The translations under genes were made by a program, and so were the position numbers. The notes beneath the pieces were generated by a model. It did not search any database. It was not told where the DNA came from and saw only the letters and a list, made by a program, of their open reading frames with translations. Positions 2,976 through 22,500 of a stretch of DNA of 64,000 nt are shown here, one piece after another. This stretch comes from an uncultured Clostridia bacterium. GTDB lineage: Bacteria; Bacillota; Clostridia; Oscillospirales; Acutalibacteraceae. The DNA lies in NCBI GenBank assembly GCA_947305745.1, contig CAMZEH010000005.1, positions 5,339-69,338 of the forward strand, in the 5' to 3' direction. Position 1 is the stretch's first letter. The number at the start of each line of letters is the position of its first letter.

Positions 2976-4682
2976 TTATTCTTCGCGGAAAATATTAAAT
3001 GCGCGCAGTAAATTGAGCGTACCATAGCCCCACTGTGGATTTGGATAATCTCTGTTTGCGTCGCGGTCACACCCTCGTATCAGAATTAGTCTGAGTCTAT
3101 TGCCCGTGAGGGCAAGGAAATTTCTTTCCACTATCGCCCACTGCATTAGCAGTGCCGCTGCACCCGCAGTAATTGCCGCAGCTACGCTCGTTCCACTCAT
3201 CTCTACAAAACCATTCGGGGAAACTCCCTCGACGTTCACTCCCGGCGCGGCGAAATCGGGCGAAAACTTCATTCCGACAGTAGGCCCCCAAGAGCTATTT
3301 ATATAAAGACTGCTTTCTATGCTATTATATGCACCGACGGCTATCGTTCCCATGGCGGTTGAAGGAATCACCGTTGTATAATTTGGTGTCGGCGCAACAA
3401 ACTCTATATCGGGACTCACAAACCCCGTCATCGGTAACCACGCTTGATACTCTCCGCTTATTATCAAATCGCCGTGGAGATTTATTTCCCACGTTCCCGG
3501 CACGACGTCCGTTATCTGCACTATCGCAAACCTACTTTCGTTTTGATGATATGCAATATTGACCGTAGAACGTTCAAATATCAGCTTTTTCTGATACGTC
3601 GTACCCACAAAAAACGGAATTTTATTTATTATTTCACCTGTTGGAGATTTTAGCGAAAACGAAATTTTATCCCAGCCCGAATACCATATATAAACGCTCA
3701 GAGTTTTCGCCTGTTCTCCCACGCGTACGGATATCGGCACAACATCGCCCTCCTTTTCCACAACCCCTTGCGTATGATGCCTGGCATTGCTCTCATTGCC
3801 CACTGCGGTAGATATAACCGTCCCAACCGAATTCGACAAAAACGATATATAGTTTTCCAGACGATTTTGCCCATTGTGTCCGCCGAAGTTTGTGCCGAGT
3901 GCGAGGCATATCGAGCATGGTCTCCCGAGAGCTCCCGCCTGCTCAAAGATAAACGACAGACCAAGCATTATATCAATTGAAATATATGCATTTTCCTGTT
4001 CGGGCGGGACTAAAAACTTTTTCAGATAAAACGGCGCCGCTTTTTTCAGTTTGACTACTATCAAATCGGCATCGGGCGCAGCTCCTATGAATTCGCCGTC
4101 TTGTCGACCCGCCGCGAGAGATGCAAGATACGTCCCGTGTCCATTCTCATCTTTATGCGGCACTATATTATATGGCTCTTCACTCCTAAGTGCTTCATTA
4201 ATCTGTTCGGCGGTATAAACCGTACCAAAATTCACACCGTAGTTTTGCGGTCCTTCTGCAGTTTGATCCCAAATATACTTAATTTTTGTCGTCCCGTCTT
4301 CGTATCTGAAAACGGGATTCGTGTAATCTATGCCGGTATCGACTATGCCTACAATCACGCCCGAGCCGGTAAGGTTTAAATACGGCTGCTGCTGTACGTC
4401 CGCTATACCACTTGCTTCGAGCGCCTCGGTAAAAGTCAGACCGTACACTTCCGGATAGGTATTTAGAAAATCCGAACCGAGCTCTTCGAAAATAGTTTCC
4501 ATATTTTCTTCATTTGTACACAAAATCGCAAGGTCATTAGATAGCACTTTAACGAGCCGTATATAAGGTTTATCGGCCAGATACGCCTGAAAAGAAGGCG
4601 TATACCAGGCGTAAAACGGAACCGTTGTCGGCAAAGCTATAAATTCATCGAGCGGCAGTAATATATCTTCTGAATTCGGCAT
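2976..4682 (-). CDS. S8 subtilisin-like serine protease, Csp (germination-specific protease) type
   Basis: Full catalytic triad: VGIVDTGIDY (Asp), NGHGTYLASLAAG (His), SGTSVAAAITAGAAALL (Ser). About 100-aa prodomain, no signal peptide, IWDQT motif, ~570 aa as in clostridial CspA/B/C. ATG 4682 follows AGGAGG. The ORF-track TTG at 4712 lies upstream of that RBS. Confidence 0.7.
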   Translation of the reverse strand: MPNSEDILLPLDEFIALPTTVPFYAWYTPSFQAYLADKPYIRLVKVLSNDLAILCTNEENMETIFEELGSDFLNTYPEVYGLTFTEALEASGIADVQQQPYLNLTGSGVIVGIVDTGIDYTNPVFRYEDGTTKIKYIWDQTAEGPQNYGVNFGTVYTAEQINEALRSEEPYNIVPHKDENGHGTYLASLAAGRQDGEFIGAAPDADLIVVKLKKAAPFYLKKFLVPPEQENAYISIDIMLGLSFIFEQAGALGRPCSICLALGTNFGGHNGQNRLENYISFLSNSVGTVISTAVGNESNARHHTQGVVEKEGDVVPISVRVGEQAKTLSVYIWYSGWDKISFSLKSPTGEIINKIPFFVGTTYQKKLIFERSTVNIAYHQNESRFAIVQITDVVPGTWEINLHGDLIISGEYQAWLPMTGFVSPDIEFVAPTPNYTTVIPSTAMGTIAVGAYNSIESSLYINSSWGPTVGMKFSPDFAAPGVNVEGVSPNGFVEMSGTSVAAAITAGAAALLMQWAIVERNFLALTGNRLRLILIRGCDRDANRDYPNPQWGYGTLNLLRAFNIFREE

Positions 4683-4838
4683 ATAAATCCTCCTAATATA
4701 AGAATTTTCCAAAATATGCTATGCAAGCGGTTTCATGCACTATAATATTACTAACTGCAAATGTAATTAATACGCCAAAAGTATCGCTTCTTCTAATTAA
4801 ACATGTTATAATAAAAAACAAAAACGGAGAATTAATTT

Positions 4839-5219
4839 ATGCAAAAAATGTACATGACACATCCTATTTTACCCACACCGAACCCCAAACAAACCGCTGA
4901 TTTTTACGTCCAAAAATTAGGTTTTGATTCGGTAGAATATTTAAATGCCAAAGAACCTCACATATGTTTATACAAAGACGATATTGAGATTATACTGACA
5001 GATTCAAACGGTCAAAAAGTCATTCCGAACCGTGAATTGTACGGCTATGGATATGATGTTTATATAATCGTAAATAATCAAGAGGAACTGCAGAAAGAAT
5101 TCGACGATAAAGGACTTAAAATCGTAAAAAGACTTTCCGTAACCGACTATAATAACAAAGAATTGGTTTTGGAAGATATTGACGGCAGGTGGCTTGGGTT
5201 TGGTGTAAAACTCGGATAA
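4839..5219 (+). CDS. VOC (glyoxalase/bleomycin-resistance-like) family protein
   Basis: 126-aa ORF with a beta-alpha-beta-beta-beta style pattern (FYVQKLGF ... EIILTD ... YDVYIIV ... LVLEDIDGRWLGF). GGAG RBS lies 9 nt upstream. Confidence 0.5.
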   Translation: MQKMYMTHPILPTPNPKQTADFYVQKLGFDSVEYLNAKEPHICLYKDDIEIILTDSNGQKVIPNRELYGYGYDVYIIVNNQEELQKEFDDKGLKIVKRLSVTDYNNKELVLEDIDGRWLGFGVKLG

Positions 5220-5275
5220 AAAAACTATATAATTTGAATAGATAACCATTTGAAAATTTTCAAATAAAAAATTAT

Positions 5276-7009
5276 TTAAATATATCCGTTGAAAATCCAT
5301 AATTCCTCCAAGGCGTCGTAAACACAGAGCGTTCCGTAGCCAAAACTATTATTTGGGTAATTTATTCTGCCGTTTCTCCGCGAACCTTTTTTTAGGTAAG
5401 CTTTTAATCTTTCGCCATATAAAAACGGGTCCCTCTGCTGTACGATGCCCCACTGCATGAGAAGTGCCGCCGCGCCCGAAACAAACGGCGCCGCCATACT
5501 CGTACCGCTAAAAAGTGAATATCCTCCACCCATAGACGGCGCAAGAATATCCACCGCCGGTGCGACCAAATCGGGCTTTGTGTAAACAACGCTCAAGGTG
5601 TATCCGCGGCCTGAAAAATCTGTTATTATGTTCCTCACAGAGTCATATCCACCGACTGTGATTACGTTTTGAGCCGTCCCGGGTATTGTAAGCGTTGCGT
5701 CGATTGACGGATTGACAAAACTTGTATCCGTTCCGACTTCTTCCACGGTCGGGAGATAAATATCATAGCTGCCCTCAACGATTTTTCTCGCTCTGACGCG
5801 TATTTTATATATTCCGATGGGCAATTGCCCTTCCACTGGGTCGATTTGAAAAAATATTTCCTGAAAAGTAGTATAAAACTTCGGCTGACCATAGCTTACA
5901 ACTATTCTTGCGTCGCCTATACGAAAATTCCTTACCCTATCAATATACGAAATCTCGCCCGTTGAGCGCCCGCTCGGAAGAATCAGCCCAACGGAGAAAT
6001 CATCCGCAAAATTTTTCCACATCGTAAGAAAAAACGAATTATTTTTACCCGAATAGAAAAATTCTATATTTTGAACTTCATCGTTTGAAATTTTGCCTGA
6101 ATAATGATGCCCCGCAGAACCTTCGTTACCCGCTGCCACCACTATCGATGTTTTCCATTTTTCCGCCATGCTATTTATATAAAGCTCAAAAAGCGACTGC
6201 CCGTTATGCGCGCCGTCGTTTGTGCCGTAACTTATGTTTATTACAAGCGGCAAACCAAACGCCAGAGCTTTATCAAGCGAATATTTAACAGCTCGCATAA
6301 GTTCTGTCGTCCTTGCAAAAGACGGGTATCCTTTTTCGCCAAGCTTTACGACTATAATTGAAGCATTCGGTGCAACTCCGACGTTTTCTCCGCCCGATGC
6401 CCTTCCGTTTCCCGCGGCAATCCCCGCCACAGCCGTTCCGTGCCCCATAATATCTACTTCAGGCACAAGAGAATATGGGTCATTCGACGAAAGAGCAGCG
6501 TTAATTTGCTCGTTTGTGTACTCTGCGCCCGACGTGAACCCCTGCGGAGGGTTGCCTTCGCCGGTCTGATCCCACATGCAAAGAATTCTGCTTGTTCCTT
6601 CCTCGTTTATGAAATCGGGGTGCGTATATTCTATCCCCGAATCTATTATCGCTACCGCAACGCCTTCGCCCGTAAGGTTATACCTGCCTACTCTCTGCAC
6701 TTCGGGTACACATGAACTTCTAACGCTTTCCTGGTAGCTAAGAGTGAGTATTTTTGGCGCTTCTACAGCCTCGACTTCCGTGAACTCCGTTAAGCGCGAA
6801 AGTTCGCTCAGCCGAAGCGTTATAATTGCAAAATTTTCGCTGAGAATCTCGGTTTCTACGCCGAGCTGACGCCCTACCGCCACAATATCGCCATTATATT
6901 TTACGATTACTTCCAGCGGCGCATCGCTAAAGCCGTAATACCCCGCAAGCGGAACGATATCGCTTTCGGAAATCACCGCTCTTCCCGGCACCAAACTCGA
7001 TAAAGACAT
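5276..7009 (-). CDS. S8 subtilisin-like serine protease, Csp (germination-specific protease) type
   Basis: Full triad: VAIIDSGIEY, MGHGTAVAGIAAG, SGTSMAAPFVSGAAALL. Prodomain with VIVKYNGDI, MWDQT motif, no signal peptide, 577 aa. GGAGG lies 7 nt upstream of the ATG. Confidence 0.7.
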   Translation of the reverse strand: MSLSSLVPGRAVISESDIVPLAGYYGFSDAPLEVIVKYNGDIVAVGRQLGVETEILSENFAIITLRLSELSRLTEFTEVEAVEAPKILTLSYQESVRSSCVPEVQRVGRYNLTGEGVAVAIIDSGIEYTHPDFINEEGTSRILCMWDQTGEGNPPQGFTSGAEYTNEQINAALSSNDPYSLVPEVDIMGHGTAVAGIAAGNGRASGGENVGVAPNASIIVVKLGEKGYPSFARTTELMRAVKYSLDKALAFGLPLVINISYGTNDGAHNGQSLFELYINSMAEKWKTSIVVAAGNEGSAGHHYSGKISNDEVQNIEFFYSGKNNSFFLTMWKNFADDFSVGLILPSGRSTGEISYIDRVRNFRIGDARIVVSYGQPKFYTTFQEIFFQIDPVEGQLPIGIYKIRVRARKIVEGSYDIYLPTVEEVGTDTSFVNPSIDATLTIPGTAQNVITVGGYDSVRNIITDFSGRGYTLSVVYTKPDLVAPAVDILAPSMGGGYSLFSGTSMAAPFVSGAAALLMQWGIVQQRDPFLYGERLKAYLKKGSRRNGRINYPNNSFGYGTLCVYDALEELWIFNGYI

Positions 7010-7929: not shown

Positions 7930-7959
7930 AATAAAAACCCTGCCACACAAAGCAGCAGG
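7930..7959 (-). terminator. Rho-independent terminator closing the AAA+ operon
   Basis: On the minus strand: CCTGCTGC-TTTGT-GTGGCAGG (8 bp including two G-U pairs), followed by GTTTTTATT. Confidence 0.6.
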
Positions 7960-7975
7960 AATAAAGTACATATTT

Positions 7976-10306
7976 TTATTTGTCGGTTTCACTGTTCCGC
8001 TCGATGTAATCATTAATCTGATCAGCAGTGAGTGATGCCTCAGGATTAAGACTCTGCAGCTCTTTTGCTGCTTTGCTGTAATTATCGTATGAATCATATC
8101 CAAGCGGAAAAATTTTAAATTTAATCGTAAGCTTACCTGTGGAATCATGTGTTTCATAAGGTTTGGCAAGGAAAGTAAGTCCTTTATAGCTCTTGCCAGC
8201 ATTTTTAATCGCGGAAAACTCTTCAACAACAGATGAGTACAAGTTCCCACATACAGATCCCGTTTTACTGCCTCCGGCACCTACTATGGCTCTGGCAGCA
8301 TTTGGCATCTTCGCGGCATATTGAGCTATTTTCCTATAGTCAGCATCAGTTATCAACACACCGCCTATTCCCTCGCTGATACGTATAATCAAACTTACGT
8401 TATACGGCGAACTATGTTTGTTGTATTCCGCAACATTAGGTATACTCCTGATATCTTCGATAGCACTGCGAGCGATTTTCTCGTAATCGTCAACGGTTAA
8501 TTTATCAAAGTAGCATGTGCTATTAGCAAATCGCTGAGCTATAGAAGAGTCGTGCGGAACTAAAGTTTGCGTTCCGGAATCATCATCATATTTTGGCGTT
8601 ATATAGACAAAATCGCCACCGTCATCTATAACAGGTTTACCGGTATCATCACCTTTAATTTCCATCAATTTTCCTTGACTGGTTACTTTTACCCTACCTT
8701 GAAGCGAAGCGGACGTTTCATTCGTAGTACATATAAATACTAATCCGTTTAAGTCTATTGTGTTTCCGTAATGATCTTTTAATTCATTGTAATATATAGA
8801 CCTCAACACTTCGTCGAGTGGGTGTTCACTCGGATATTTGCCGTCATTTCCTTTTTTATAGATTTTATCGAACTCATCTAAAATTACAACTCTGACGTGA
8901 CCTTCGGTTGATTTTAAGTATGATGCCAATGTGTTTGACTCGCCGAGCAGCGATGATGTCGAGGTCCTGTCGGCTCCTTGTTTTGTGTTACTGTAGAGCA
9001 GTGCGTAAGGCATATCTCCATAACTATTTTTTGCAGCTTGCAACACATCGCCTGCTGTTAATACATAAGGTTTTATACTTGTTAATGATTCACTTAAGAG
9101 ATTAGCCATATATGTTTTTCCGGTGCCTGACGGCCCATTAAATATAAGCACTTTTGGTTCAGGAAGATCAGAAACATATGCTCCCATTTTTGCAGCTTTT
9201 CTTTCCGCAGAGAAACCAACAAAGAATGACATTATTTGCTCTTTAGCGCCTTTCTGACCATGAATTTCGTTATCAAATTTCTTTCTGAGCACTCTTTCTT
9301 CTTTTTCAGAATCGTATTTCTTTTCTGCTTCTTTTTGCATGTTCAGTTCGATAAGCTTTTCAGCTTCTTGCTTATACTGACCCAATTCCTTGGTTTGATA
9401 CCTGATCATATTTACATCATCGAAAAATTTACGAACTGAGGAAAAAGCACCTGTCGTTTTGGAAAGTAGCGTTGCTACACCACCGGCTGTTGTTGTCAAG
9501 GCACCGGTGAGTACCAAGCCTTCGGTTAATTTTTTTACAAACCCTTCTTTTTCTAAACGTTCTTTTTCGCTCAATAAATAATGCTGTGCGTTAAACTTTG
9601 CTTCTGGCGGCATTTTGTCGTTCCGCAATTCGTTTAGTGCTTTTTTGGTCTCCTCGAGTTCGTCACGATTCTTAATAGCTGCTTGGAAATTTCCTCCTAT
9701 TTTATCGCGTTGACCAACAAGAGCTGCGCCGCCCGTTATAAGTGCAGCTGAGGCTAACAAAATTTTTCCTTTATTATCCCAAATGGTATCCGCCAATTTA
9801 TTTAAAGTATTTAAAATCTTCGCACCTGTGGATATATTTTCAGGCGGTTCCTCGTCTTCTTGACTGCGGAGATCATCATATTTTTCACTAAATGATTTTT
9901 CATCACGAAGCTGAGAAAAGTTTGGATTTACATTTGATTCCGAAGTATCTTTGGCGTATATGTGAGCAGACGTCATAAACGAGAGAGAAGCTAAAGCTGA
10001 AGCCGCAATTCTTTGCATGACATTTGCCCCACCGGAAACTTCATTTAAAGCTTTTTCGCTGAGTTTTTTTATTTCATCATCACTGATTTTTTGAGCTTCC
10101 TCGGCCGCTTGTCCGATTTCATCAAGGCACATACAAACAAGCTGATCAAAAAACTCGCAAAACTCCTCAAAGGTGTATCCATCCTGGATAGTTTGGCAGA
10201 TTTTGTAAAGCTCAACCATATCATCAGTTACCATAATTTGATCAATTTTTGCTTCGTTATCAAAAATTTTTTCCATCAAAATATCTAAATTGGAATTATT
10301 AACCAT
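7976..10306 (-). CDS. Membrane-associated AAA+ ATPase (single ClpB-D2/torsin-like module) with N-terminal Nif11-like domain and double-glycine motif
   Basis: Walker A IFNGPSGTGKTY, Walker B VVILDEFDK, sensor-1 FICTTNE. A Lys/Glu-rich coiled-coil linker and hydrophobic segments precede the ATPase. The N-terminus ends ...KKLSEKALNEVSGG. The start is taken at MVNNSN (ATG 10306, AAGGA 9 nt upstream). The ORF-track TTG is at 10324. Confidence 0.7.
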   Translation of the reverse strand: MVNNSNLDILMEKIFDNEAKIDQIMVTDDMVELYKICQTIQDGYTFEEFCEFFDQLVCMCLDEIGQAAEEAQKISDDEIKKLSEKALNEVSGGANVMQRIAASALASLSFMTSAHIYAKDTSESNVNPNFSQLRDEKSFSEKYDDLRSQEDEEPPENISTGAKILNTLNKLADTIWDNKGKILLASAALITGGAALVGQRDKIGGNFQAAIKNRDELEETKKALNELRNDKMPPEAKFNAQHYLLSEKERLEKEGFVKKLTEGLVLTGALTTTAGGVATLLSKTTGAFSSVRKFFDDVNMIRYQTKELGQYKQEAEKLIELNMQKEAEKKYDSEKEERVLRKKFDNEIHGQKGAKEQIMSFFVGFSAERKAAKMGAYVSDLPEPKVLIFNGPSGTGKTYMANLLSESLTSIKPYVLTAGDVLQAAKNSYGDMPYALLYSNTKQGADRTSTSSLLGESNTLASYLKSTEGHVRVVILDEFDKIYKKGNDGKYPSEHPLDEVLRSIYYNELKDHYGNTIDLNGLVFICTTNETSASLQGRVKVTSQGKLMEIKGDDTGKPVIDDGGDFVYITPKYDDDSGTQTLVPHDSSIAQRFANSTCYFDKLTVDDYEKIARSAIEDIRSIPNVAEYNKHSSPYNVSLIIRISEGIGGVLITDADYRKIAQYAAKMPNAARAIVGAGGSKTGSVCGNLYSSVVEEFSAIKNAGKSYKGLTFLAKPYETHDSTGKLTIKFKIFPLGYDSYDNYSKAAKELQSLNPEASLTADQINDYIERNSETDK

Positions 10307-10413
10307 TGGCGACATTCCTTTCAAATTATTCTATTCATCCTCTTTCTATTATAATCAACCTAAACTAAAAAGTCAAGTAAAATAAGTTTATTTTATACAG
10401 TATTTGTTGTTTG

Positions 10414-11766
10414 TTACAGTAATTGTCTTGAAAATTCGTATTCACCGGTTTCATGGTTTTTTCCAAATAGTATTTTAACGTTTCTTCCATAATCCTTGCC
10501 CATTGTTTTCGCCATTAAACCTCTAATTTCATCTTCAAAAACATTTTTCAGTCTGCCTTGCATAATCTTATCGTTAAACATATCCTCAGCCATTGAATCA
10601 CGGATTTCTTCTTCGAAAATGACGTCAGCCAGCCTGAAAGGTCCCGCGGGCTCTTTTAAACTTTCGGTAATTTTTTCAATCATATCATCAACTATCGAGC
10701 GGCAGGCTTCCTTGGAAAGATGTTCGAATTCAATAATATTTAAGCGCTGTGCGCCACCGCCTTTTGTGCCGTCTATACCGAAATTTTTTTCAAGTTCTTG
10801 GTGTGTTTCATTGGTAGTGACAAGAAAAAGCGTCCTGGTACAATCGACTTCTTTATTCATAAACTTATATTTACCTGTGGAAGCTATCGAACGTAATATC
10901 TCATCAGCACTGTTGTCAACCGATGATGCCTCCTTCTGGCCTGGAATAGGCACACTGACACCCTGGATGTTCATAGTCGTCCCCGGTTTTGCACTTTTGA
11001 GCTTCATCTTATCATATTCATCAATAATTACAACAGATTCATACCATTGCAAGAGATGTTTAAGCATGGGAGATTCTTCATCTTTGGGGACAAGGCCGTC
11101 GCTACCAGTAAACCAGTTTTTTTGACGCTTTTCTCCTATATCTTTTGTCAAAATCGTTTTAAAAAGCTGCGTACCCAGCTCCGACTCAGACGTTATGCTC
11201 TCGCTATGGCAGAAAATACACGTTTTTTCAGAATGTTTTAAAAATGCGTCAGCAATGGCATAACACATTTTTGTTTTCCCCGTGCCGGATGGCCCGATTA
11301 TATAGATTATATTCCCACGCATATCTTTTTCGTCATATTTTCCGCGATTTAAATCGTCAACCCTTGCGGCAACACCGCTAAGAGCATTGAACATCTGTCG
11401 TTTCGCCCTTTGCTGACCGTATACACGAACTTCGGATTTACTATTACAAATATCCTCCAGCTTTTTTACTATTTCGGAAATTTCGCGAAATCCCGAGTAT
11501 TTATTAACTTCGCTGCGAGCCTTTGCGCTATCAATAAACCCATCGACGCGCATTATAATTTCACCAAGTATCCTTGGTACCATACTGGCTATCACGGAGC
11601 CGATAACTGAAACCAAAAGCCCGTTACCTTTTCCAATTTGCGCACTGCCGGTTACTGCCTGTGCATTTTCTTCTGCTTTTGTACCCGGCATCAAAATCGA
11701 TCTGCCACTAAAAATCAAACTAAACGCCAAAAATCCTGCCAAACATTTTCTCTTAAAAATTTTCAA
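10414..11766 (-). CDS. Membrane-tethered AAA+ ATPase (single ClpB-D2/torsin-like module)
   Basis: Signal/anchor MKIFKRKCLAGFLAFSLIFSG and a second hydrophobic helix LLVSVIGSVIASMVPRILGEII. Then VYGQQRAKRQMF, Walker A IIGPSGTGKTKM, Walker B VVIIDEYDK, sensor-1 LVTTNE. TTG start preceded by GGGGGA. Confidence 0.7.
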   Translation of the reverse strand: MKIFKRKCLAGFLAFSLIFSGRSILMPGTKAEENAQAVTGSAQIGKGNGLLVSVIGSVIASMVPRILGEIIMRVDGFIDSAKARSEVNKYSGFREISEIVKKLEDICNSKSEVRVYGQQRAKRQMFNALSGVAARVDDLNRGKYDEKDMRGNIIYIIGPSGTGKTKMCYAIADAFLKHSEKTCIFCHSESITSESELGTQLFKTILTKDIGEKRQKNWFTGSDGLVPKDEESPMLKHLLQWYESVVIIDEYDKMKLKSAKPGTTMNIQGVSVPIPGQKEASSVDNSADEILRSIASTGKYKFMNKEVDCTRTLFLVTTNETHQELEKNFGIDGTKGGGAQRLNIIEFEHLSKEACRSIVDDMIEKITESLKEPAGPFRLADVIFEEEIRDSMAEDMFNDKIMQGRLKNVFEDEIRGLMAKTMGKDYGRNVKILFGKNHETGEYEFSRQLL

Positions 11767-11862
11767 TCCTTTTCCCCCGTTAATATATCAAATTTTAAAA
11801 TCAATTGTTCCGAATAAGTATATTAACAAATTTTTAAGCAGAAATCAAGCAGGATTTACGGT

Positions 11863-13674
11863 TTATGAAATTTTTGTTATCTCAAATTTTATTTTATCAC
11901 CATCCAAATTGCAGATGATCTGCTCTTCACTTTTTAGCTTTCTTCTGATCATCAAGTCCGAAATTGGGTGTTCAATATTTTCCGTTATGATCTTATCGAT
12001 GGTTCTGGCACCGTATAAATTTTTTTCTTCAAAACTAAGCTTGCGTATATAAGCTACAACTTCATCGGGAATCTTGATCCCAATTCCGCCCGTGAAAAGT
12101 CTGTTTTCGAGGCCGGAAAGTTTCATCTTCACTATAGAATTATAATTTTCTTCCAAAAGATTATTGAAAAATATAACATTATCTATTTTTTTCTCTATAT
12201 TGTTATCAAAGTTATCAATAACGTTTTGTTTTAAAGAGTTTTCGACTGAATTTATGTTGCAATTTGCATCGCTCGAATTTACAACCATAATAACAATCGC
12301 ATTGGTAAAATCAACTTTTTTGCCCGAAAAATCAGTTAGAAAACCTCTGTCTAAAATTTCATATATAACGCTCAACTCAGCAGAATCTGCCGAGTTGATA
12401 TTATCAAACATAACCACGGAATAAGGATTTTTCATAATTTTTTCTATCAGCTCGCTCTTGCTTTCGCTCGAACCGACTAGATTTTTAAGCGAATGCTTAT
12501 ATCCGATGCCTAGCATATCAACACTTATAAAACTACCGATTTCTTCCCCAATCACTCTTGCAAGCTCGCTTTTGCCTACTCCGGGAGGTCCTACAAACAT
12601 AAAAGAAGCTCTGGGTTTATTCTCATCACAGAATCCCAAACGGCTCCTCTTCACCGCTGAACAGACAATATCGACGGCGTGATCTTGCCCTATGACAAAT
12701 TTTTTCACTCGATTATTCATAGTTTCCAGCGCTTCGGCTTCATCTGCCGACAAATCACCGATCGGTATATTTGTTACTTCGGATATAGCGTCTATAACAT
12801 CACCTCGTTTAACTTGACATATATCTCCTTTTGACTTTTTCTGTGCGGTTACCAAAGCTAAATTAAGTATATCTACCGCTTTGTTGGGGTAAAATTTATT
12901 TTTCATATATCTTCCGGTGAGATTTACGATATCCATAAGCACTTCGTCAAATATTTTTACATGTTGTTTTTTTTCGGCATCGCTCTTTAAATACTTGAGT
13001 ATCCTAAAAGTATCAAATTTATTGGGCTCTTCCAAAAAGATATATGTATAATCTTGAGCAAAAGCATCATTTTTCATCATTTGAGTGTATTGTTCGTCCG
13101 TCGCCGAAACTATAATTTTTATATCTCCTTTATCGAGATACGTTTGTATAAGTTCCAAAACGCCGGGGATTTGTGATATTTGATAGATATTATCAATAAA
13201 CAAAATAATATCTTTATCCGATTTAGCGTTATTCAAAATAGCTCTCAAGCGAGTCAATATACTACCTTTTACTCCGCTTTTCCCAACAATGAGTTTGGCG
13301 ATATTGACTTTAAATATCTTTTTGTTTTTCATGTTTTCAGAAACATTATCGTGAGCAATTCTATACGCCAATCCCTCAACAAGTGCCGTTTTCCCGACAC
13401 CTTTGCCCCCGACTATACATGGGTTACTTTTCTCACTCAGTAAAAGTATATCGGTCAAATTTTCAATTTTGTCATCGCGCGTGAAAAAGTCGTGATACTC
13501 ACCACTTCGTGCTTTTTCGGTCATATTTTCGCAGTATTCGGACATAACAAAATATCTGTCGGCATCAAAAAAGCCCGATGCAGCGATAACCTCATATAAA
13601 GGCTTTGCAGTCATAGAACTAATGGTATTGAGGATCGTCGAAAACAAAATAGTTAAAATCAAAATTCCCACCAT
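11863..13674 (-). CDS. Membrane-anchored ClpB/ClpA-like two-ring AAA+ protein, predicted hydrolysis-deficient
   Basis: N-terminal TM MVGILILTILFSTILNTISSM. D1 has GGKGVGKTALVEGLAYRI and D2 has VIGQDHAV ... FVGPPGVGKSELARVIG, both collinear with ClpB D1/D2. The N-domain and M-domain are absent. Walker B reads ILFIDNIY and VVMFDNIN (DN, not DE). AAGGAG RBS lies 9 nt upstream of the ATG. Confidence 0.75.
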   Translation of the reverse strand: MVGILILTILFSTILNTISSMTAKPLYEVIAASGFFDADRYFVMSEYCENMTEKARSGEYHDFFTRDDKIENLTDILLLSEKSNPCIVGGKGVGKTALVEGLAYRIAHDNVSENMKNKKIFKVNIAKLIVGKSGVKGSILTRLRAILNNAKSDKDIILFIDNIYQISQIPGVLELIQTYLDKGDIKIIVSATDEQYTQMMKNDAFAQDYTYIFLEEPNKFDTFRILKYLKSDAEKKQHVKIFDEVLMDIVNLTGRYMKNKFYPNKAVDILNLALVTAQKKSKGDICQVKRGDVIDAISEVTNIPIGDLSADEAEALETMNNRVKKFVIGQDHAVDIVCSAVKRSRLGFCDENKPRASFMFVGPPGVGKSELARVIGEEIGSFISVDMLGIGYKHSLKNLVGSSESKSELIEKIMKNPYSVVMFDNINSADSAELSVIYEILDRGFLTDFSGKKVDFTNAIVIMVVNSSDANCNINSVENSLKQNVIDNFDNNIEKKIDNVIFFNNLLEENYNSIVKMKLSGLENRLFTGGIGIKIPDEVVAYIRKLSFEEKNLYGARTIDKIITENIEHPISDLMIRRKLKSEEQIICNLDGDKIKFEITKIS

Positions 13675-16482: not shown

Positions 16483-16526
16483 ATAATAAATATTGGTTTT
16501 GAGCGATTATTGTGGAGGAAATGCGT

Positions 16527-19500
16527 ATGAAAAAGATTTTCTATAATCTAAAACTCGCAAATTCAAAATTTATTTGGTGCATTGCCGCGCTTTTTATGAT
16601 ACTCTCTTTTGCCGTTAAAGTTGATTGTACCGACGGATTTAGTAAAAGCATAATAGCTTTGCCTAAAGCCGAAAATGGCATAGAAAAAATAGAATATATA
16701 GTGAACGGCGAAGCAAAAGGCAGCACGGATGGTGTAGACTCTATCGAACTCGAGGCCGGTGCTAAAATTACTTTCGCCGTTAAATTCGAGTCCGAAGGAT
16801 ACGGGAAGTTACACGTCAGAAATGTCAAAATAAAATCCGAAAACGGCTCTGTTCTGAGGTTCAATACCTATGCAAAAGATGATGAAGGCAATTTTGTACT
16901 TATGAGAGTCGAGGACAGCGCACCCATAAATCCCGATCAAACTTACGTTTCTTCCGATTACATTGTAAGAAAAGATGACAAGCTTTCTTTTGAAGGCATA
17001 GAAGAGGACAAATACCTCGTCAAGATCGCCGATGAAAATAATGATGTAAACCTTTCCGATGCGGTAAAGCTCAAATATGCCGAAAACGGCGGAAACTACA
17101 TCGAGGCGGAATTTTCAGAGGGAGAAAACGCATTTTTAATAAATAATCTCACAAAAAGCTCAAACGTAAAGCTGATGTTCGAATTCACGGAAGGTTATAC
17201 AAATTCGGATCTATCTTTGGTAAATTCTGAAAATCAAATAGCAATAGATACAAAATCAAAAATATGCACCCTCCCACAGCTCAAAGGCGACATTGATTTA
17301 GAAATAAGAAATCTGAAAAAAAACAGCTATAGTGTTACTTTTAATGAATATTCAAACGCTAAATTTTCGTACAGAATTGCAGGCTCAGACGACGAATTTA
17401 CATCTTCTGAAATTTTAAAAGTGAACTACGGTGACTGTCTGGAAATTAAATGTGCCACAAGCAGTGATGATATCCTTAAATCGGGCGATGTGACGGCAAA
17501 CGGTAAAGTTATAGCAAAAAATAACGGTATATATACTTTGGAGAACATAAAAGATCACTACAGCATAGCAATTACGCCAAAAGTAAATGCTATATACACA
17601 ATTTCGCTCCCCGAAAATGAAGACAGAATAAAACTTTGTGATACCTTTGGCAATGAAGTTTCCGAAATTAACGCAAAGCAAAATGATTCCGTAGACCTTA
17701 AAATTATTCCGAGCGACGCATACAGCAAAAACTTTATCTTAGCCGAAATGTACGCTGTACCAATGAGCAAACTCACGAACGGCAACTATGATATATACGC
17801 CGACCCCGAAGAAGCAAAATCATTTTTGCTGCTGCCCTCCGGCGATTTCCTCTACACGCTTAAAAACATTAACGAACCTGTGAAAATCATCGCCGGTAAA
17901 ATGGATAAAAACATTTATACCGTAACGCTGCCCGAAAAAATAATCGGCGCAAATGCGCAGATCGAGCCAAGCGAAAATATAACACAAATTACCGAAAATA
18001 AATTCAAAGTTGTTCACGGAATGGATTTGGTAGTAAACCTCGAAGCACAAGCAGGTTATGATTTGTCCACAATAAACGCGAGCGATGTGGATAATTCCGT
18101 TGAAGTCAAGAAAGATGGTAATAAATACACATTTAAAAATATCGACAGCGACAAATATATAATAATAAACGGAGCTTCGGCATCTTCATGCAAAGTTTCG
18201 TTTGACGGTAATGATATAGTCGCGACAAGCGAAAATGGACACACATGGGAAAATAACAGCGCCTCGATAAAATATCAAGAAGGCACACTGAAATTTAAGG
18301 TGCGTCCCGCCGATAACGCAGGCAATCCGAACGAAGACATTCCGCTGAGCATAAAATCTGGCAGCGGAAAACTCGAAAAAATTTCTTCGGAAAAAAATAT
18401 GTATTCACTGAGCGGGGTTACGGATAACATCGTTCTCAGCGCGAATAGAGCGCAAAGCTCCGACGTTACGATAGCTCTCAAATCTGACGATGATGACATA
18501 CAATTTACTGATGCAGATGACGAAAATATCATTCTCCCCGAAGAAAACACTGTAAAATACGGCACTGATCTCAAATTTAAAGTCCTTTCAAAAAGCGGAA
18601 GAAGCACAGACAATGCTTCGATTATGTCCAGCGTTTCAAATCCCATCACACCGAGCGATACTTCTTCAAATACATTTTCGGTCACTGCGCTACGTTCCGG
18701 AACAACTCTCGCCAATACAAGAGAAACCGCTAAAACGGGGCATTATGTAGACCTATGTGAAAATATTTATTCGCCCGATTCCCCCTCCTCTGCAAAAGCA
18801 TATTCCGGAGTGGCATCTTTTTCAATGGAACAGGCAATCCCTTTGCCGTTGGTTGTACTAAGTAAAGATCCCGAGGCTTGCGAATGTATAAACCAACCGG
18901 AAAAAATCCAGCTTTCCCCAACGGGTACCGACCCAACCTTGATGGTAAACGATCCTAACTATAAGTTAATAGAAACAGGCGAAACACCGGAAGAAAACTT
19001 GTATGAGTCGGAGCTAATCTTACCCCAGATCTTATATGGCAACACGGTACTGGATAACCAAAAATTCAAATTAAACTTTAAAATAAGTCATTACACGATC
19101 ATAGGTGGGGACACGGCGTCAAGCGGATATCCGACACAAGTGTTGTTCGTGAAAGAGATACTTCAAGGAAAAAGCGGCGCAAATGACGTGGAGCGCGTTA
19201 TACCAAGTACTGACGCAGCTGTTCCGGCTACGGCAATAAGCGAAAAAACCACAGGAGATTACTATGCGCAAAAAACCATAGATGAATACACTCCTGACGG
19301 TTCCTCAGCCTTACAATATTTACCCGATTGCTATTGTCAAGGATTTGGAGTTTTATATAAATGGGTATCACTGGACAGAAATCTCGATTATGATGTTAAT
19401 CATCAGTCAACACTCGAATATAAAGACTTAGATAATATTTCCTCTGATTTTAATATAACAACATATTCTCCCGATTACGACAGTGATAATTATGCGAGGT

Positions 19501-22500
19501 TTGATTTTAAACCTGCTACAAGCAAATTCAAAATATATCTTGAAAAAGGAAAAACATTCGCAAGCGGAGTGACCGAGCCAATATCTTTAAATGAAGGAGC
19601 TCACGCGAAACTTACTCAAAGTATTGTACAGGATGGTGCGTACTGCTATATTGACTGTACGCTAACGGCCACGGCGTTTGACAAATCAATCTCTCTAAAT
19701 TGGTCAAATAATTCACAAATAGAGAATCTTAAACATGATATCAAATATAACCCAATAGGAGGAATTTGCAGAAACTCTCAAAAAACCGAAACAACAGCCG
19801 ACCAAGTTGGATATGCGCAGGGACTTACCTTCTATACAGAGCCGAAAGAAGGGTATATGTACACTGATTCTCTAAGAATATTAAAGAATCAAACATTCTA
19901 TAATGTTGATGATATTTCAAAAATAAAAATTATAGATAATACCAATGAAGCAAGCTATAACGGTGAATGGATAAAACTGTCATATTCAGATTCGGATCCG
20001 GGGCTCTTTATAAGGGCGATTATGGAGGATTCTCAAATAAAATACGAAATTGCGGGAAGTACAGAAACGATAAGTGAATACATCATCAAAAATAACGATG
20101 CGTCCGGCACCGAAAACGTCAATTACTCCAAAGTTGTCCCCTCCGAGATCATCACCCCCGAAGGAGTGACGACAGATCTACAAATTACTTCCACAAGAAT
20201 TCTGCGCAAGGTCACTGTAACTTTTAGTTACTCTGAAGGCAGCGAATACACACAAATCGACGGAACGGTCATCGAAGATACGCAGAAAACTCTAAATTAC
20301 GGAGAAGCATTGGCATTTAAAGTTGTGGCCAAAGACGGTTACGACATATCAAATATACAGGTAACGGCCTCAACAGCAACAACTACAAACATACTGCCCC
20401 TTACAAACGGTATGTACGTACTCGTTAACGTAAGCGAACCGACTACAATTTCGGTCAGCGGGATTGAAAAATCAAACATATTACTTCAATTCGAACAGTA
20501 TGAGGGGGTAAAATATAAAAACACGGCGGGTGGAGAATATCTACTACGGCAAGAAATTCCTTATTACCAAGAAATCCCGTTCCAAATAGAGATTGATGAG
20601 AGTTATTCTCAAAAAGCTGAAAACATAAAAGCATACGTAAACGGTGAAGAATTTTCCGACTCGCCTGACAGTGAAAATCCGCGCCCGTACGTTGACAACA
20701 ACCTTTATATAATTCCACGAGAATGTGTAAATCAAGATATTAAAATTACGCTTTCAGGGCTTGAAGTAAATAAATATTCAGTCTTATTAAAACCCTCAAA
20801 TGGAATTAAATATTATGACACAACGGGTGAAAACATTCTCCCCGAAAACAATGGAAACATAAATTACGGCAATTCGTTTAAGTTCCGACTCCAGGCAGAT
20901 TATGGTTACGATATATCTAACGTTGAAGTCATCGCAAAAAGAAACTCAGGCGGCGGCTCACCCGTTACGTTGATACCTGCAAACGGAATTTATACAATCG
21001 ATAACATAACATCAGATTATGTCGTTACGGTTTCGGGAATTTCAAAGCAGCAGCATACCGTAGAATTCCGAACCGTTACAGGCGTAGCGTGTATAGATTC
21101 TTACGGGAAAACGCTTCCTTCAAGCATAACCGTTTCGGACGGAGATGATTATTCATTCTACCTTTCGTTTGATCCCGCATACAGCAAATCCAAAGACACC
21201 GCCGATGTTACCATTAAGGGTACAAACAACAAGGTACCGCACGATTCAAGCGGGAAATATACACTTTCGAACATAACCGAAAATAAAATCGTGGAAATAA
21301 TAAATGTAACTAAAAATTCATACACTGCAACATTTGTTCCGGCGGAGGGTGTGGTCTACAGGACAGCCAAAGGTAAAGAATTCAGCGGAACACTCAATGT
21401 TGAGTACGGAGAATCGCTATATTTTAAAATTTCACTTCTGGACGCGTATGATCAGTCAACGCCTGCGGTTAAGATGAATGGCACAAAGAGCCTTCTTGAA
21501 AACAGCGGCTCATATGTGCTTGAGAACATCAGCGAAGATGTGACGGTGACGGTCGAAAACGTTGAAAAAAATCCCGAAGAAGTCACTATAGACTATATTC
21601 AGAACGTACCGGACCCCGTCAGAAACGAAGATGACGTAAATGCAGTAGTTGCTGCGACAAAAGCATACAATTCTCTCTCCGATGAGGAAAAGAAGCTGGT
21701 AACAAACAAACAAGCACTCGAAAAGGCTCAAAACGAGGCCGGAAATATAAATCACACCTCAAACGGCACGACAATAAGCGGGGTTGACTGGAATGTGAAA
21801 TTAATAGTTACACCGCTGAGTGATAATGAAGAAGAAATGAACTCGTTCGCTGAAGATGTGGATCGCAGAAGTGTGCTTTCGCTTTACAGGGCTGAACTGA
21901 TAGATTTGCTCACCGGCGAAAACTACAGCATACCGTATGGCAAAAGCGTACAAATAACCATGCCATGCCCCGATCTCACGGGATATAAAAATATAACAGT
22001 TGCGCACAGAAATTTGGCGGATAACATGGAATATCTCGATCCGAATATCATCGGCGAAACTGTTAAATTCGCCACGAGTTCTATGGGGCTGTTCGGAGTA
22101 GCGGGAAAAGAAATCCCGAATTACTCGAAAAACACTTCGGATATGTCAATTTCTATGGGGAATCTTGTTTCCGACGACGACGAACTCAAAACATTACTCG
22201 GAGAAGACCTGAGTTCTGAGCTTGGACACCTTATAGATTTGGAAGATGAAAACAGCAAAAAAAGCAATAACGCCAATGCCGGTGGCGAAAACGGATCGAG
22301 AGGCTCGGAAGGTTCAGACTCACTGCTAAACAGTATGGCCAGTGGTATATCAGCTTTTGCAAATTCACTATACAACTGGGCGATGGATAACGAATTCCTT
22401 GCAGTCTTGGCGATTTTGCTTCTTGGCTCGCTCTTGATACTCATTATTCTCCTCGCGAATCGCAAAAAAGATAAAAAAGATGACAACATTGAAAAGAGTG

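What the first reader, a model, noticed from the sequence alone, without database searches (positions are those of the whole stretch)
9940..10306. Nif11-like domain and double-glycine leader motif on the N-terminus of a ~780-aa AAA+ ATPase, followed by an internal signal-peptide-like start
Residues ~12-60 (NLDILMEKIFDNEAKIDQIMVTDDMVELYKICQTIQDGYTFEEFCEF) resemble the helical Nif11-type leader domain, including the G-[FY]-x-F-x-x-EE element. They are followed by ISDDEIKKLSEKALNEVSGG (GG codons GGT GGG at 10028-10033). The register I(-15) L(-12) L(-7) V(-4) G(-2) G(-1) is that of double-glycine leaders cleaved by C39-peptidase ABC exporters.

Nif11-type and GG leaders are known on short RiPP or bacteriocin precursors. 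Here the cargo would be a ~680-aa ATPase.

Directly after GG comes M-Q-R-IAASALASLSFMTSAHIYA-KD. This reads as a complete Sec signal peptide starting at an in-frame ATG (10016-10018), with GGTGGGG 8 nt upstream. An internal start could therefore give an isoform parallel to the neighbouring 450-aa paralogue, which begins directly with a signal peptide. Either the leader is a regulatory or targeting module on a large protein, or one gene encodes two products.
Basis: partly seen in the sequence, partly recalled or inferred. Interest (0 to 1): 0.7.

Follow-up and report, generated by a model that had tools for sequence, protein, structure and literature searches.

The report
Bacteriocin-type leader on membrane ATPase
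A 93-residue leader of the kind that normally marks small antibiotic peptides for cutting and export sits, highly conserved, directly in front of an ordinary secretion signal on a large membrane ATPase; the same two-part head occurs on several unrelated large proteins of uncultured Clostridia, including gut and rumen ones, which points to an undescribed protein-processing route.

Summary
The gene (7976-10306, minus strand, 776 aa) starts with a four-helix domain and an L-S-x-x-x-L-x-x-V-S-G-G tail. These are homologous to genuine Nif11-type double-glycine leaders (hhalign 98.6 %, E 1e-15; best PDB sequence hit is a 'Nif11 domain-containing protein'). The curated Nif11 HMMs do not hit it directly.

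The leader is the best-conserved part of the protein: 67 % identity against 52 % for the AAA+ core. The GG and the -4/-7/-12 hydrophobic register are kept in 11 orthologues and in about 60 distant relatives.

Right after GG comes a Sec-type signal peptide. All 37 large relatives have one, against 3 % of control windows and 0 of 21 genuine RiPP precursors. This leader-GG-signal-peptide module heads at least five unrelated cargo families, including AAA+ ATPases and USP-like peptidases with or without a Macro domain.

The internal ATG is not conserved, so a two-start gene is unlikely. No C39 exporter lies in the window or within the up to 10 kb of flanking DNA read at 11 related loci. Membrane topology is unresolved.

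Best reading: a cytoplasm-facing, C39-cleavable leader on a Sec-inserted membrane ATPase. This is a new variant of a known kind and appears undescribed.

The parts
10348..10376 (-). sigma-70-type promoter-like site TTGACT-17-TATAAT directly upstream of the gene
   Evidence: Best match in the 6-kb region scanned, 11 of 12 positions. Consensus match only.
10127..10306 (-). Residues 1-60: Nif11-like four-helix head of the leader (motif G-Y-T-F-E-E-F)
   Evidence: hhalign to genuine Nif11 precursors 98.6 %, E 1e-15. Top PDB sequence hit is 9zn4_A 'Nif11 domain-containing protein', E 0.001. AF2 with 35 sequences gives pLDDT 85-97 and four helices. 67 % mean pairwise identity among orthologues, the highest of any region.
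10073..10126 (-). Residues 61-78: variable helical linker of the leader
   Evidence: 32 % identity and indels among orthologues.
10028..10072 (-). Residues 79-93: double-glycine cleavage-type motif I-KK-L-S-E-K-A-L-N-E-V-S-G-G (I-15, L-12, L-7, V-4, G-2, G-1)
   Evidence: TIGR01847 16.2 bits against cut-off 15.7 on the fragment. I79, E84, L87, G92 and G93 are invariant in 11 orthologues. The register is kept in 59 relatives.
9953..10027 (-). Residues 94-118: Sec-type signal-peptide-like segment (n: ANVMQR; h: IAASALASLSFMTS; c: AHIYA, predicted cut A118|K119). Contains Met97 (10018-10016).
   Evidence: The n/h/c pattern with small-x-small is found in 37 of 37 large relatives, 3.0 % of control windows and 0 of 21 RiPP precursors. 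50 % identity among orthologues, with A102, S103, L105, A106, S107, L108 and F110 (nearly) invariant. Kyte-Doolittle hydropathy 1.25 only.
9827..9952 (-). Residues 119-160: hypervariable acidic, Ser-rich loop
   Evidence: 17 % identity with many indels. pLDDT below 50.
9713..9826 (-). Residues 161-198: amphipathic helix, conserved W-D-N-K-G-K, and the strongest hydrophobic segment (ILLASAALITGGAALVG), the likely true transmembrane helix
   Evidence: Kyte-Doolittle hydropathy 1.60-2.06. W176, N178, K179, G180, K181, I182, L184, S186 and A188 are invariant. 62 % identity.
9464..9520 (-). Residues 263-281: third, marginal Gly/Thr/Ala-rich hydrophobic segment. Unclear whether it spans the membrane.
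   Evidence: Kyte-Doolittle hydropathy 1.4-1.5; crude insertion free energy about 2.5 kcal/mol. Positionally equivalent to the second hydrophobic segment of the 450-aa paralogue.
7979..9316 (-). Residues 331-776: ClpB-D2/ClpC/ClpX-like AAA+ module plus C-terminal domains. Walker A is at nt 9113-9136. Walker B (D477-E478), sensor 1 (N529) and sensor 2 (A671-R672) are intact.
   Evidence: Pfam AAA and AAA_2. Invariant catalytic residues. AF2 pLDDT 80-94. Foldseek finds ClpC/ClpA/ClpB-NBD2/ClpX at E 2e-11 to 1e-8.
7938..7960 (-). Terminator-like hairpin with T-run just after the stop codon (7976-7978)
   Evidence: Consensus match only.
10414..11766 (-). 450-aa paralogous AAA+ gene with signal-peptide-like N-terminus and one further hydrophobic segment, without a leader
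   Evidence: Present in L002-L004, absent in L001 and L005.
11863..13674 (-). 603-aa ClpA/ClpB-like double-AAA+ gene whose Clp N-domain is replaced by an N-terminal hydrophobic helix. Conserved upstream partner.
   Evidence: TIGR02639 ClpA 4.8e-109 but far below cut-off; ClpB_D2-small. Kyte-Doolittle hydropathy 2.05 at residues 1-19. Conserved upstream in L001 and L002-L004, absent in L005.

Best explanation
The first 93 residues are a genuine, selectively maintained Nif11-type double-glycine leader: a folded four-helix head plus a flexible L-S-x-x-x-L-x-x-V-S-G-G tail. It has been fused directly in front of the Sec-type signal peptide of a membrane-anchored, catalytically intact ClpB-D2-like AAA+ ATPase.

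The gene is one member of an apparently undescribed class in uncultured Clostridia, some from gut and rumen samples. In this class the same bipartite head, leader-GG-signal peptide, is attached to at least five unrelated cargo families.

Proposed working:
1. The whole protein is made from the ATG at 10306.
2. The signal-peptide-like helix and the strong hydrophobic helix at residues 180-198 insert into the membrane through Sec/YidC. The ATPase stays cell-associated.
3. The acidic leader stays on the cytoplasmic face.
4. There its GG tail is presented to the cytoplasmic C39 peptidase domain of a PCAT-type ABC transporter, or a related C39 enzyme, encoded elsewhere. That enzyme clips the leader off after Gly93.

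On this reading the leader is a processing and targeting handle, not a RiPP leader and not evidence of a second start codon.

Shown: homology of the leader, conservation of the cleavage register, the signal-peptide-like segment as a class-wide feature, an intact ATPase, and absence of a conserved internal start.

Inferred: that cleavage happens, which enzyme does it, the order of events, and the final topology. The confidence given is for the whole mechanism; the homology and architecture alone I hold at about 0.95.
For: Leader homology:
- A profile built only from the AAA family retrieves genuine Nif11 precursors. P0073 and P0044 pass the TIGR03798 cut-off at 40.4 and 33.3 bits against 32.3.
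- hhalign gives 98.6 % and E 1e-15.
- A profile of large-cargo leaders has PDB 9zn4_A 'Nif11 domain-containing protein' as top hit, ending on ...ELEAVAGG.

Selection: the leader head (67 % identity) and the GG motif (60 %) are more conserved than the AAA core (52 %). The positions kept, -1, -2, -4, -7 and -12, match the published consensus for Gram-positive PCAT substrates (Ile/Leu/Val -12, Glu -8, Leu -7, Val -4, Gly -2, Gly -1; PMC12184118). LahT150 needs only the last 13 leader residues (PMC6363468).

Homologous short precursors sit in a classical cluster with a C39-ABC transporter, YcaO and radical-SAM genes (L015).

Signal peptide: 37 of 37 large relatives against 3 % of controls. Two relatives carry a lipobox-like motif at the same place.

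The module occurs on five cargo families.

Gene structure: own promoter-like site and terminator-like hairpin, and a single long ORF.

Precedent for a non-bacteriocin cell-envelope protein proposed, mainly from modelling and proteomics, to be handled by a PCAT, in Faecalibacterium: MAM (PMC12184118).
Against: - No C39/PCAT gene in the 64-kb window or within the up to 10 kb of flanking DNA read at 11 related large-cargo loci (several of them short contigs).
- The only C39-type gene seen nearby (L017) is a stand-alone Peptidase_C39_2 with its own signal peptide, so probably extracellular.
- Pfam Nif11 and TIGR03798 do not hit the window protein directly.
- No known PCAT substrate approaches 680 aa (own knowledge).
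- Topology is unresolved. Three hydrophobic segments would put an ATP-dependent enzyme outside the cell. The K/R-rich N-flank of the second segment argues against the first segment acting as a classical exported signal.
- AF2 gives no confident contact between the leader and the signal peptide.
- No SignalP or TMHMM-type predictor was available. The signal-peptide call rests on my own heuristic.
Confidence: 0.45

Rival explanations
1. Exapted, uncleaved domain. The Nif11-like head and GG tail are a permanent cytoplasmic interaction or regulatory domain of the ATPase. The following helix is simply the first transmembrane helix of an N-in hairpin. No C39 protease is involved.
For: No PCAT is near any of 11 large-cargo loci. 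The head is a well-folded domain and the most conserved part of the protein, as expected for a partner-binding domain. The cargo domains (AAA+, USP-like, Macro) are cytoplasm-type enzymes.
Against: A structural domain has no obvious need to keep G-1 in 59 of 59, G-2 in 57 of 59 and the -4/-7/-12 register in proteins only 20-30 % identical. The GG tail is modelled as flexible and low-confidence, not as part of the fold. The segment after GG carries a small-x-small site and, in two relatives, a lipobox. These are features of cleaved signals, not of plain transmembrane helices.
Confidence: 0.25
2. Two translation products. Ribosomes also start at Met97, using GGTGGGG as a ribosome-binding site. 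This gives a leaderless isoform that begins with the signal peptide, like the 450-aa paralogue.
For: There is an in-frame ATG 8 nt after GGTGGGG, with anti-SD duplex energy -5.6 kcal/mol. Met occurs within +1 to +6 after GG in 11 of 37 large relatives against about 8 % expected. One relative (L008) has GGAGGG-6 nt-ATG at -9.8 kcal/mol.
Against: Met97 is absent from all 10 orthologues. L002 and L005 have no start codon in the window after GG; L001 and L012 carry only a GTG at +1, abutting the GG codons with no spacing for a ribosome-binding site (duplex -3.1 kcal/mol). 9 of 14 large-cargo loci lack an ATG at +1 to +4 after GG. Codon choice at GG is not biased toward GGAGG. The Met enrichment is equally explained as a relic of leader fusion onto genes that already began with a signal peptide, and the 37 proteins are not independent.
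Confidence: 0.1
3. True PCAT cargo. The whole 683-residue protein, and the other large cargoes, is exported through a peptidase-containing ABC transporter after GG cleavage. It acts outside the cell or in another cell, as an effector.
For: A canonical GG leader. Cargo types typical of effectors: USP-like peptidase, Macro, AAA+. One USP-like member is next to contractile-injection-system-like genes. L017 is an island with many leader-bearing proteins.
Against: A second, Sec-type signal would be redundant. Most members carry further strong transmembrane segments after it. No PCAT substrate of this size is known (own knowledge). The genes sit in core-genome, syntenic contexts rather than in secretion or toxin islands.
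Confidence: 0.08
4. Chance resemblance or a gene-model or assembly artefact.
For: The curated Nif11 HMMs miss it. A GG motif alone is short.
Against: Profile E-values are 1e-15 and down to 1e-43 within the family. The same architecture appears in 11 orthologues from independent assemblies. It is a single uninterrupted ORF.
Confidence: 0.01

Closest known systems
Nif11-type leader RiPP precursors (N11P; TIGR03798 / PF07862; e.g. ProcA prochlorosins, LahA peptides of Lachnospiraceae C6A11)
   Same: Homologous N-terminal helical domain with the G-[YF]-T-x-E-E-F element and an L-S-D-E-x-L-x-x-V-[AS]-G-G tail, GG aligned on GG. Such leaders are cut by C39 domains such as LahT150 (PMC6363468).
   Different: Those are precursors of about 100 aa, with core peptides of 24-35 residues (in the 21-sequence sample; hypervariability per Haft 2010). 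They occur in tandem next to modifying enzymes and a PCAT (L015; PMC2887384). Here the 'core' is a 683-aa membrane AAA+ ATPase. A Sec-type signal peptide follows GG (0 of 21 RiPP precursors have one). There is no biosynthetic cluster, and the curated HMMs do not reach it.
Double-glycine leader substrates of peptidase-containing ABC transporters (class II bacteriocins, CtA/PCAT1, Faecalibacterium MAM)
   Same: The -12/-7/-4/-2/-1 register (consensus quoted in PMC12184118). MAM shows that in Faecalibacterium a non-bacteriocin envelope protein is predicted to be a PCAT substrate.
   Different: Those leaders are 15-25 residues and the cargo is at most about 135 aa (MAM 135 aa from PMC12184118; the others from own knowledge). 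MAM genes lie near, or strictly co-occur with, a PCAT in the cited papers. Here the leader is 93 residues with a folded head, the cargo is five times larger and membrane-embedded, and no PCAT is nearby.
N-terminal extensions of Sec signal peptides (ESPR of autotransporters, YSIRK-G/S and KxYKxGKxW signals of Gram-positive surface proteins); own knowledge
   Same: A conserved element placed N-terminal to or within the n-region of a Sec signal, thought to modulate targeting.
   Different: Those are short (10-25 aa), unfolded, have no cleavage motif of their own, and are unrelated in sequence.
Torsin (eukaryotic ER-lumenal AAA+)
   Same: Signal peptide, then a hydrophobic segment, then a single ClpB-D2-like AAA+ module. 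Weak sub-threshold Pfam Torsin match (E 0.0015, 19.1 bits against cut-off 27).
   Different: Below threshold. Sensor 2 is G-A-R as in Clp ATPases. The best structural matches are ClpC/ClpA/ClpB/ClpX. Bacteria have no ATP-containing extracytoplasmic compartment.

Membership tests
Nif11-like leader peptide family (TIGR03798 / Pfam PF07862) | Match to the curated HMM above its cut-off | tested here: not met
   No hit at E<=1 for residues 1-122 or for the whole protein. Only 7-9 of 63 relatives match, and two of those exceed the cut-off.
Nif11-like leader peptide family (TIGR03798 / Pfam PF07862) | Demonstrable homology of the N-terminal domain to family members | tested here: met
   hhalign 98.6 %, E 1e-15 over 74 columns. 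Profile hit to PDB 9zn4_A 'Nif11 domain-containing protein', E 0.001.
Nif11-like leader peptide family (TIGR03798 / Pfam PF07862) | Short precursor (about 100 aa) with a hypervariable core peptide, in paralogous sets near modifying enzymes or a transporter | tested here: not met
   The cargo is a conserved 683-aa AAA+ ATPase, a single copy in the window, among housekeeping and sporulation genes.
Double-glycine (C39/PCAT) leader substrates (TIGR01847 bacteriocin_sig) | GG-type cleavage motif with hydrophobic residues at -4, -7 and -12 | tested here: met
   L-12, L-7, V-4, G-2, G-1 in the window. Invariant in orthologues. Kept in 54-59 of 59 relatives at -1, -2, -4 and -12, and Leu at -7 in 41 of 59.
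Double-glycine (C39/PCAT) leader substrates (TIGR01847 bacteriocin_sig) | HMM score above cut-off | tested here: inconclusive
   16.2 bits against 15.7 when residues 1-122 are queried; 14.2 bits in the whole protein.
Double-glycine (C39/PCAT) leader substrates (TIGR01847 bacteriocin_sig) | Cognate C39-domain ABC transporter in the genome | not testable with these tools
   None in the 64-kb window or within the up to 10 kb of flanking DNA read at 11 related loci. The rest of the genome cannot be queried.
Double-glycine (C39/PCAT) leader substrates (TIGR01847 bacteriocin_sig) | Proteolytic removal of the leader after GG | not testable with these tools
   Needs N-terminomics or an in-vitro C39 assay.
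Sec-type (SPase I) signal peptide | Positively charged n-region, uncharged h-region of at least 10 residues, small-x-small c-region | tested here: met
   ANVMQR / IAASALASLSFMTS / AHIYA|K. My heuristic scores 37 of 37 large relatives positive against 3.0 % of 7,400 control windows. No SignalP was available.
Sec-type (SPase I) signal peptide | Located at the N-terminus of the translated protein | tested here: not met
   It begins at residue 94. It becomes N-terminal only after GG cleavage or an internal start, and the latter is not conserved.
AAA+ ATPases, ClpB-D2/ClpX-like (HCLR) group | Walker A, Walker B, sensor 1, sensor 2 and the AAA+ fold | tested here: met
   GPSGTGKT, D477-E478, N529 and A671-R672 are invariant. 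Pfam AAA and AAA_2. Foldseek finds ClpC/ClpA/ClpB-NBD2/ClpX at E down to 2e-11.
Torsin | Pfam PF06309 above the gathering score | tested here: not met
   19.1 bits against 27.

The most novel reading that the evidence does not exclude
One gene, two exported products by sequential processing rather than by two starts. Signal peptidase releases the mature membrane or secreted protein. It leaves behind a membrane-bound remnant, Nif11 leader-GG-signal peptide.

That remnant has the same architecture as a Nif11 RiPP or bacteriocin precursor. The predicted GG-to-AxA peptide is 21-33 residues (median 26), against 24-35 (median 30) for genuine cores, and both are hydrophobic and end in Ala-rich tails.

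A PCAT would then cut at GG and export the signal-peptide-derived hydrophobic peptide as a pheromone or bacteriocin, or release the folded leader head as a cytoplasmic signal. This would explain three things: why both signals are kept, why this 'signal peptide' is unusually conserved in sequence (50 % identity against 13-17 % for the adjacent loops), and why one module serves five unrelated cargo families.
Probability: 0.12. Interest if true: 0.85.

Novelty: new variant of a known kind. Interest (0 to 1): 0.65.

Why it matters
Nif11 and double-glycine leaders are treated as hallmarks of small RiPP or bacteriocin precursors, and genome-mining tools use them that way.

Here the same leader is under stronger constraint than the enzyme it precedes. 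It heads proteins of 450-1,175 aa from at least five unrelated families and is always coupled to a Sec-type signal.

If the leader is cleaved, C39/PCAT enzymes have a role in maturing membrane and secreted proteins, not only peptides. That would be a new sorting or processing route in poorly known Clostridia, some from gut and rumen samples. If it is not cleaved, a RiPP leader fold has been exapted as a protein-interaction domain.

Either way it shows that leader-based RiPP mining can pick up large proteins. It also defines a testable substrate set for orphan PCATs. The cargo itself, a three-gene set of membrane-anchored Clp-like ATPases, is uncharacterised.

Tried and rejected
- Direct Pfam and NCBIfam scans of residues 1-122: no Nif11 hit, only borderline TIGR01847.
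- Search for a C39-ABC transporter among all ORFs of at least about 350 aa in the window: none.
- Search of the window and all fetched loci with a leader HMM: only this gene in the window.
- Neighbourhoods of 11 large-cargo loci: no PCAT.
- Scans of genome and metagenome collections with leader patterns: only 4 and 2 loci; the first metagenome scan found nothing.
- tblastn of the leader against plasmid and phage collections: no match.
- Foldseek of the 131-residue N-terminal model against PDB: nothing significant. Weak GpsB hits in the PDB sequence search (E 0.02-0.5) were judged coiled-coil noise.
- Profile search for leaderless orthologues: returned only the same 11 proteins plus generic Clp ATPases, so uninformative because of the word prefilter.
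- Topology from hydropathy, a crude insertion free-energy scale and flanking charges: inconclusive.
- AF2 gave no confident packing of the leader onto the signal peptide, so the 'leader masks the signal' idea has no support.
- Literature searches found no description of Nif11 or GG leaders on large proteins or in tandem with Sec signals. The library is partial, so absence is not proof.
Full report
1. WHAT IS THERE

The finding lies at the 5' end of a minus-strand gene, 7976-10306. The long ORF begins at a TTG (10324). However, the ATG at 10306 has an AAAGGA box about 8 nt upstream. It also corresponds to the N-terminus of all orthologues and of the public gene call of 776 aa.

GGT GGG for Gly92-Gly93 is at 10033-10028. 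ATG for Met97 is at 10018-10016. GGTGGGG lies 8 nt upstream of that ATG. One detail is wrong: three residues (A-N-V) separate GG from M-Q-R.

The gene has the best sigma-70-like promoter match of the region just upstream (TTGACT-17-TATAAT, 10376-10348). A terminator-like hairpin sits right after its stop.

The C-terminal two-thirds is an intact AAA+ module. Walker A, Walker B, sensor 1 and sensor 2 are invariant. Pfam AAA and AAA_2 match. The AF2 model is confident there and matches ClpC, ClpA, ClpB-NBD2 and ClpX.

2. IS THE LEADER REAL?

Direct scans with the curated Nif11 models give nothing at E<=1. The 15-position GG-leader model TIGR01847 is borderline: 16.2 bits against 15.7 on the fragment, 14.2 in the whole protein.

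More sensitive tests are clear.
- A profile of residues 1-94 built from the AAA family alone found 66 proteins at E<=1e-3 among 1.84 billion, almost all matched at their extreme N-terminus.
- Of 63 of these, 9 match TIGR03798 (best 2.6e-10) and 7 match Pfam Nif11. P0073 and P0044 exceed the TIGR03798 cut-off.
- hhalign of the AAA-family leaders against 21 short proteins annotated with PF07862 gives 98.6 % probability and E 1e-15 over 74 columns, with GG on GG.
- A profile made only from large-cargo leaders has a 77-residue 'Nif11 domain-containing protein' (PDB 9zn4_A), ending ...ELSDSELEAVAGG, as its best PDB sequence hit.
- With 35 sequences, AF2 models residues 1-70 as a confident four-helix domain (pLDDT 85-97). 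The GG tail is flexible.

Short homologues sit in a textbook RiPP cluster: a C39-ABC transporter, a second ABC protein, six tandem precursors, two YcaO genes and a radical-SAM/SPASM gene (L015). Homology to genuine PCAT-type leaders is therefore established.

3. CONSERVATION

Only 11 close homologues exist in 5.8 billion clustered proteins, at 36-47 % identity. All carry the leader. I79, E84, L87, G92 and G93 are invariant.

Region by region, mean pairwise identity is as follows:
- leader head: 67 %
- GG motif: 60 %
- AAA core: 52 %
- the two loops: 13-17 %

The leader is thus the most constrained part of the protein. Across 59 relatives, -1 is G in 59, -2 is G in 57, -4 is V/I in 58, -7 is L in 41, -8 is D/E in 37, and -12 is L/I/V/M in 54. 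These positions match the published consensus for Gram-positive PCAT substrates (PMC12184118), and LahT150 needs only the last 13 leader residues (PMC6363468).

4. THE SEGMENT AFTER GG

- In all 37 leader-bearing proteins of at least 400 aa, GG is followed within 1-8 residues by K/R. Then comes an uncharged hydrophobic stretch of at least 10 residues and a small-x-small site.
- The same heuristic scores 3.0 % of 7,400 random internal windows and 0 of 21 genuine short Nif11 precursors.
- Two relatives have a lipobox-like motif at that place.
- In the AAA family this segment is unusually conserved for a signal peptide (50 % identity; A102, S103, L105-L108 and F110 nearly invariant).

5. A WIDER CLASS

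The bipartite head, leader-GG-signal peptide, is attached to at least five unrelated cargo families:
- AAA+ ATPases: 21 representatives
- USP/UCH-type cysteine peptidases, one with a Macro domain: 7
- a family of 680-1,030-aa proteins with no Pfam family in the four members scanned individually and no further hydrophobic segment: 6
- two smaller groups

Where named, carriers are uncultured Clostridia, Ruminococcus or Ruminococcaceae MAGs, some from human gut or rumen samples.

One contig (L017) holds at least four large Nif11-leader proteins. It also holds an AAA protein with a different GG leader plus signal peptide, three small Cys-rich GG-leader proteins, and a secreted stand-alone Peptidase_C39_2.

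The AAA-family genes lie in core, syntenic contexts: phosphoglucomutase, Clp-like ATPase(s), this gene, Cu-oxidase_4, then Csp germination proteases. Another context has different downstream genes.

6. INTERNAL START

Met97 is unique to this gene among the 11 orthologues. L002 and L005 have no start codon after GG. L001 and L012 carry only a GTG abutting the GG codons.

Across 14 large-cargo loci with DNA in hand, only 5 have an ATG at +1 to +4. GG codon choice is not biased toward GGAGG.

Met is enriched within +1 to +6 after GG in the wider class: 11 of 37 against about 8 % expected. I read this as a relic of leaders being fused in front of genes that already began with a signal peptide, as the 450-aa paralogue still does. 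An occasional functional internal start, here or in L008, cannot be excluded.

7. EXPORTER

No C39-ABC gene is in the 64-kb window or within the up to 10 kb of flanking DNA read at any of 11 large-cargo loci (several of them short contigs). Whether one is encoded elsewhere in the genome cannot be tested here. PCATs are documented in other Clostridia: PCAT1, LahT and the MAM transporter.

8. MECHANISM

The best-supported reading is that the leader is a cytoplasm-facing handle, cleavable by a C39 enzyme, on a Sec-inserted membrane protein. The argument rests on homology and on selective retention of the cleavage register. Cleavage itself is an inference.

Topology is the weak point. After GG there are three hydrophobic segments:
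- residues 100-118, signal-peptide-like and only moderately hydrophobic
- residues 180-198, the strongest, preceded by the invariant W-D-N-K-G-K
- residues 263-281, marginal

If all three span the membrane, the active ATPase would be outside the cell, which is implausible. The N-flank of the second segment is K/R-rich in all 28 proteins examined. This fits poorly with the first segment being a classical exported signal. I could not resolve this without proper predictors or experiments.

9. RIVALS

- Uncleaved exapted domain (0.25).
- Internal-start isoform (0.10).
- Export of the whole protein through a PCAT (0.08).
- Artefact (0.01).

The most novel reading not excluded is sequential processing. 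It would leave a leader-GG-signal-peptide remnant equivalent to a Nif11 precursor. The predicted peptide is 21-33 residues against 24-35 for genuine cores. A PCAT would then cut and export that peptide.

10. NOVELTY

Searches of the held literature found Nif11 and GG leaders described only on peptides and small proteins. No report of a tandem arrangement with Sec signals or of large enzymatic cargo turned up.

It is a new variant of a known kind: the parts are known, the combination and the cargo are not.

Noticed in passing
window 16512-22508 (+): A 1,998-aa ORF with a signal-like N-terminus and no Pfam family at E<=1e-5. A syntenic 1,996-aa gene, also without Pfam hits, is in L001.
   Followed up: no
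window 7976-13674 (-): Three consecutive AAA+ genes, each with an N-terminal hydrophobic segment. The 603-aa one is ClpA/ClpB-like (two AAA modules, D2-small domain) but has a hydrophobic helix in place of the Clp N-domain. The ClpA/B-like partner recurs upstream in L001 and L002-L004 but not in L005. The 450-aa gene is optional. Possibly a membrane-bound unfoldase complex.
   Followed up: partly
window 2976-7009 (-): Tandem subtilases, the second with a CspB prodomain. This is a Csp germination-protease pair, implying an endospore-forming Clostridium-type organism. The same synteny with the AAA genes is seen in L001 and L005.
   Followed up: partly
L017 1-12353: Hotspot of GG-leader proteins: four large Nif11-leader proteins, a 520-aa AAA+ with a non-Nif11 GG leader followed by a signal peptide, three small Cys-rich (CxxC) GG-leader proteins, and a secreted stand-alone Peptidase_C39_2 (5421-6182, minus strand).
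   Followed up: partly
L008 297-12660; L006 5441-13027: Leader-bearing USP/UCH peptidases always follow a 990-aa HAMP protein and a 505-aa MORN-like protein. In L008 and L009 the triad abuts contractile-injection-system-like genes (Pvc16_N, DUF4280, AAA). In L006 and L007 it lies next to the sporulation genes yabP and yqfD, and the peptidase also has a Macro domain.
   Followed up: no
large-cargo relatives P0034, P0038 (residues about 95-105): A lipobox-like motif (LLTSC, VSAGC) in the signal peptide that follows the Nif11 leader. These would be lipoprotein signals preceded by a GG leader.
   Followed up: no
window 25626-26840 (-) and 57886-59166 (+): 404-aa and 426-aa ORFs with signal-peptide-like N-termini and no Pfam family.
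   Followed up: no
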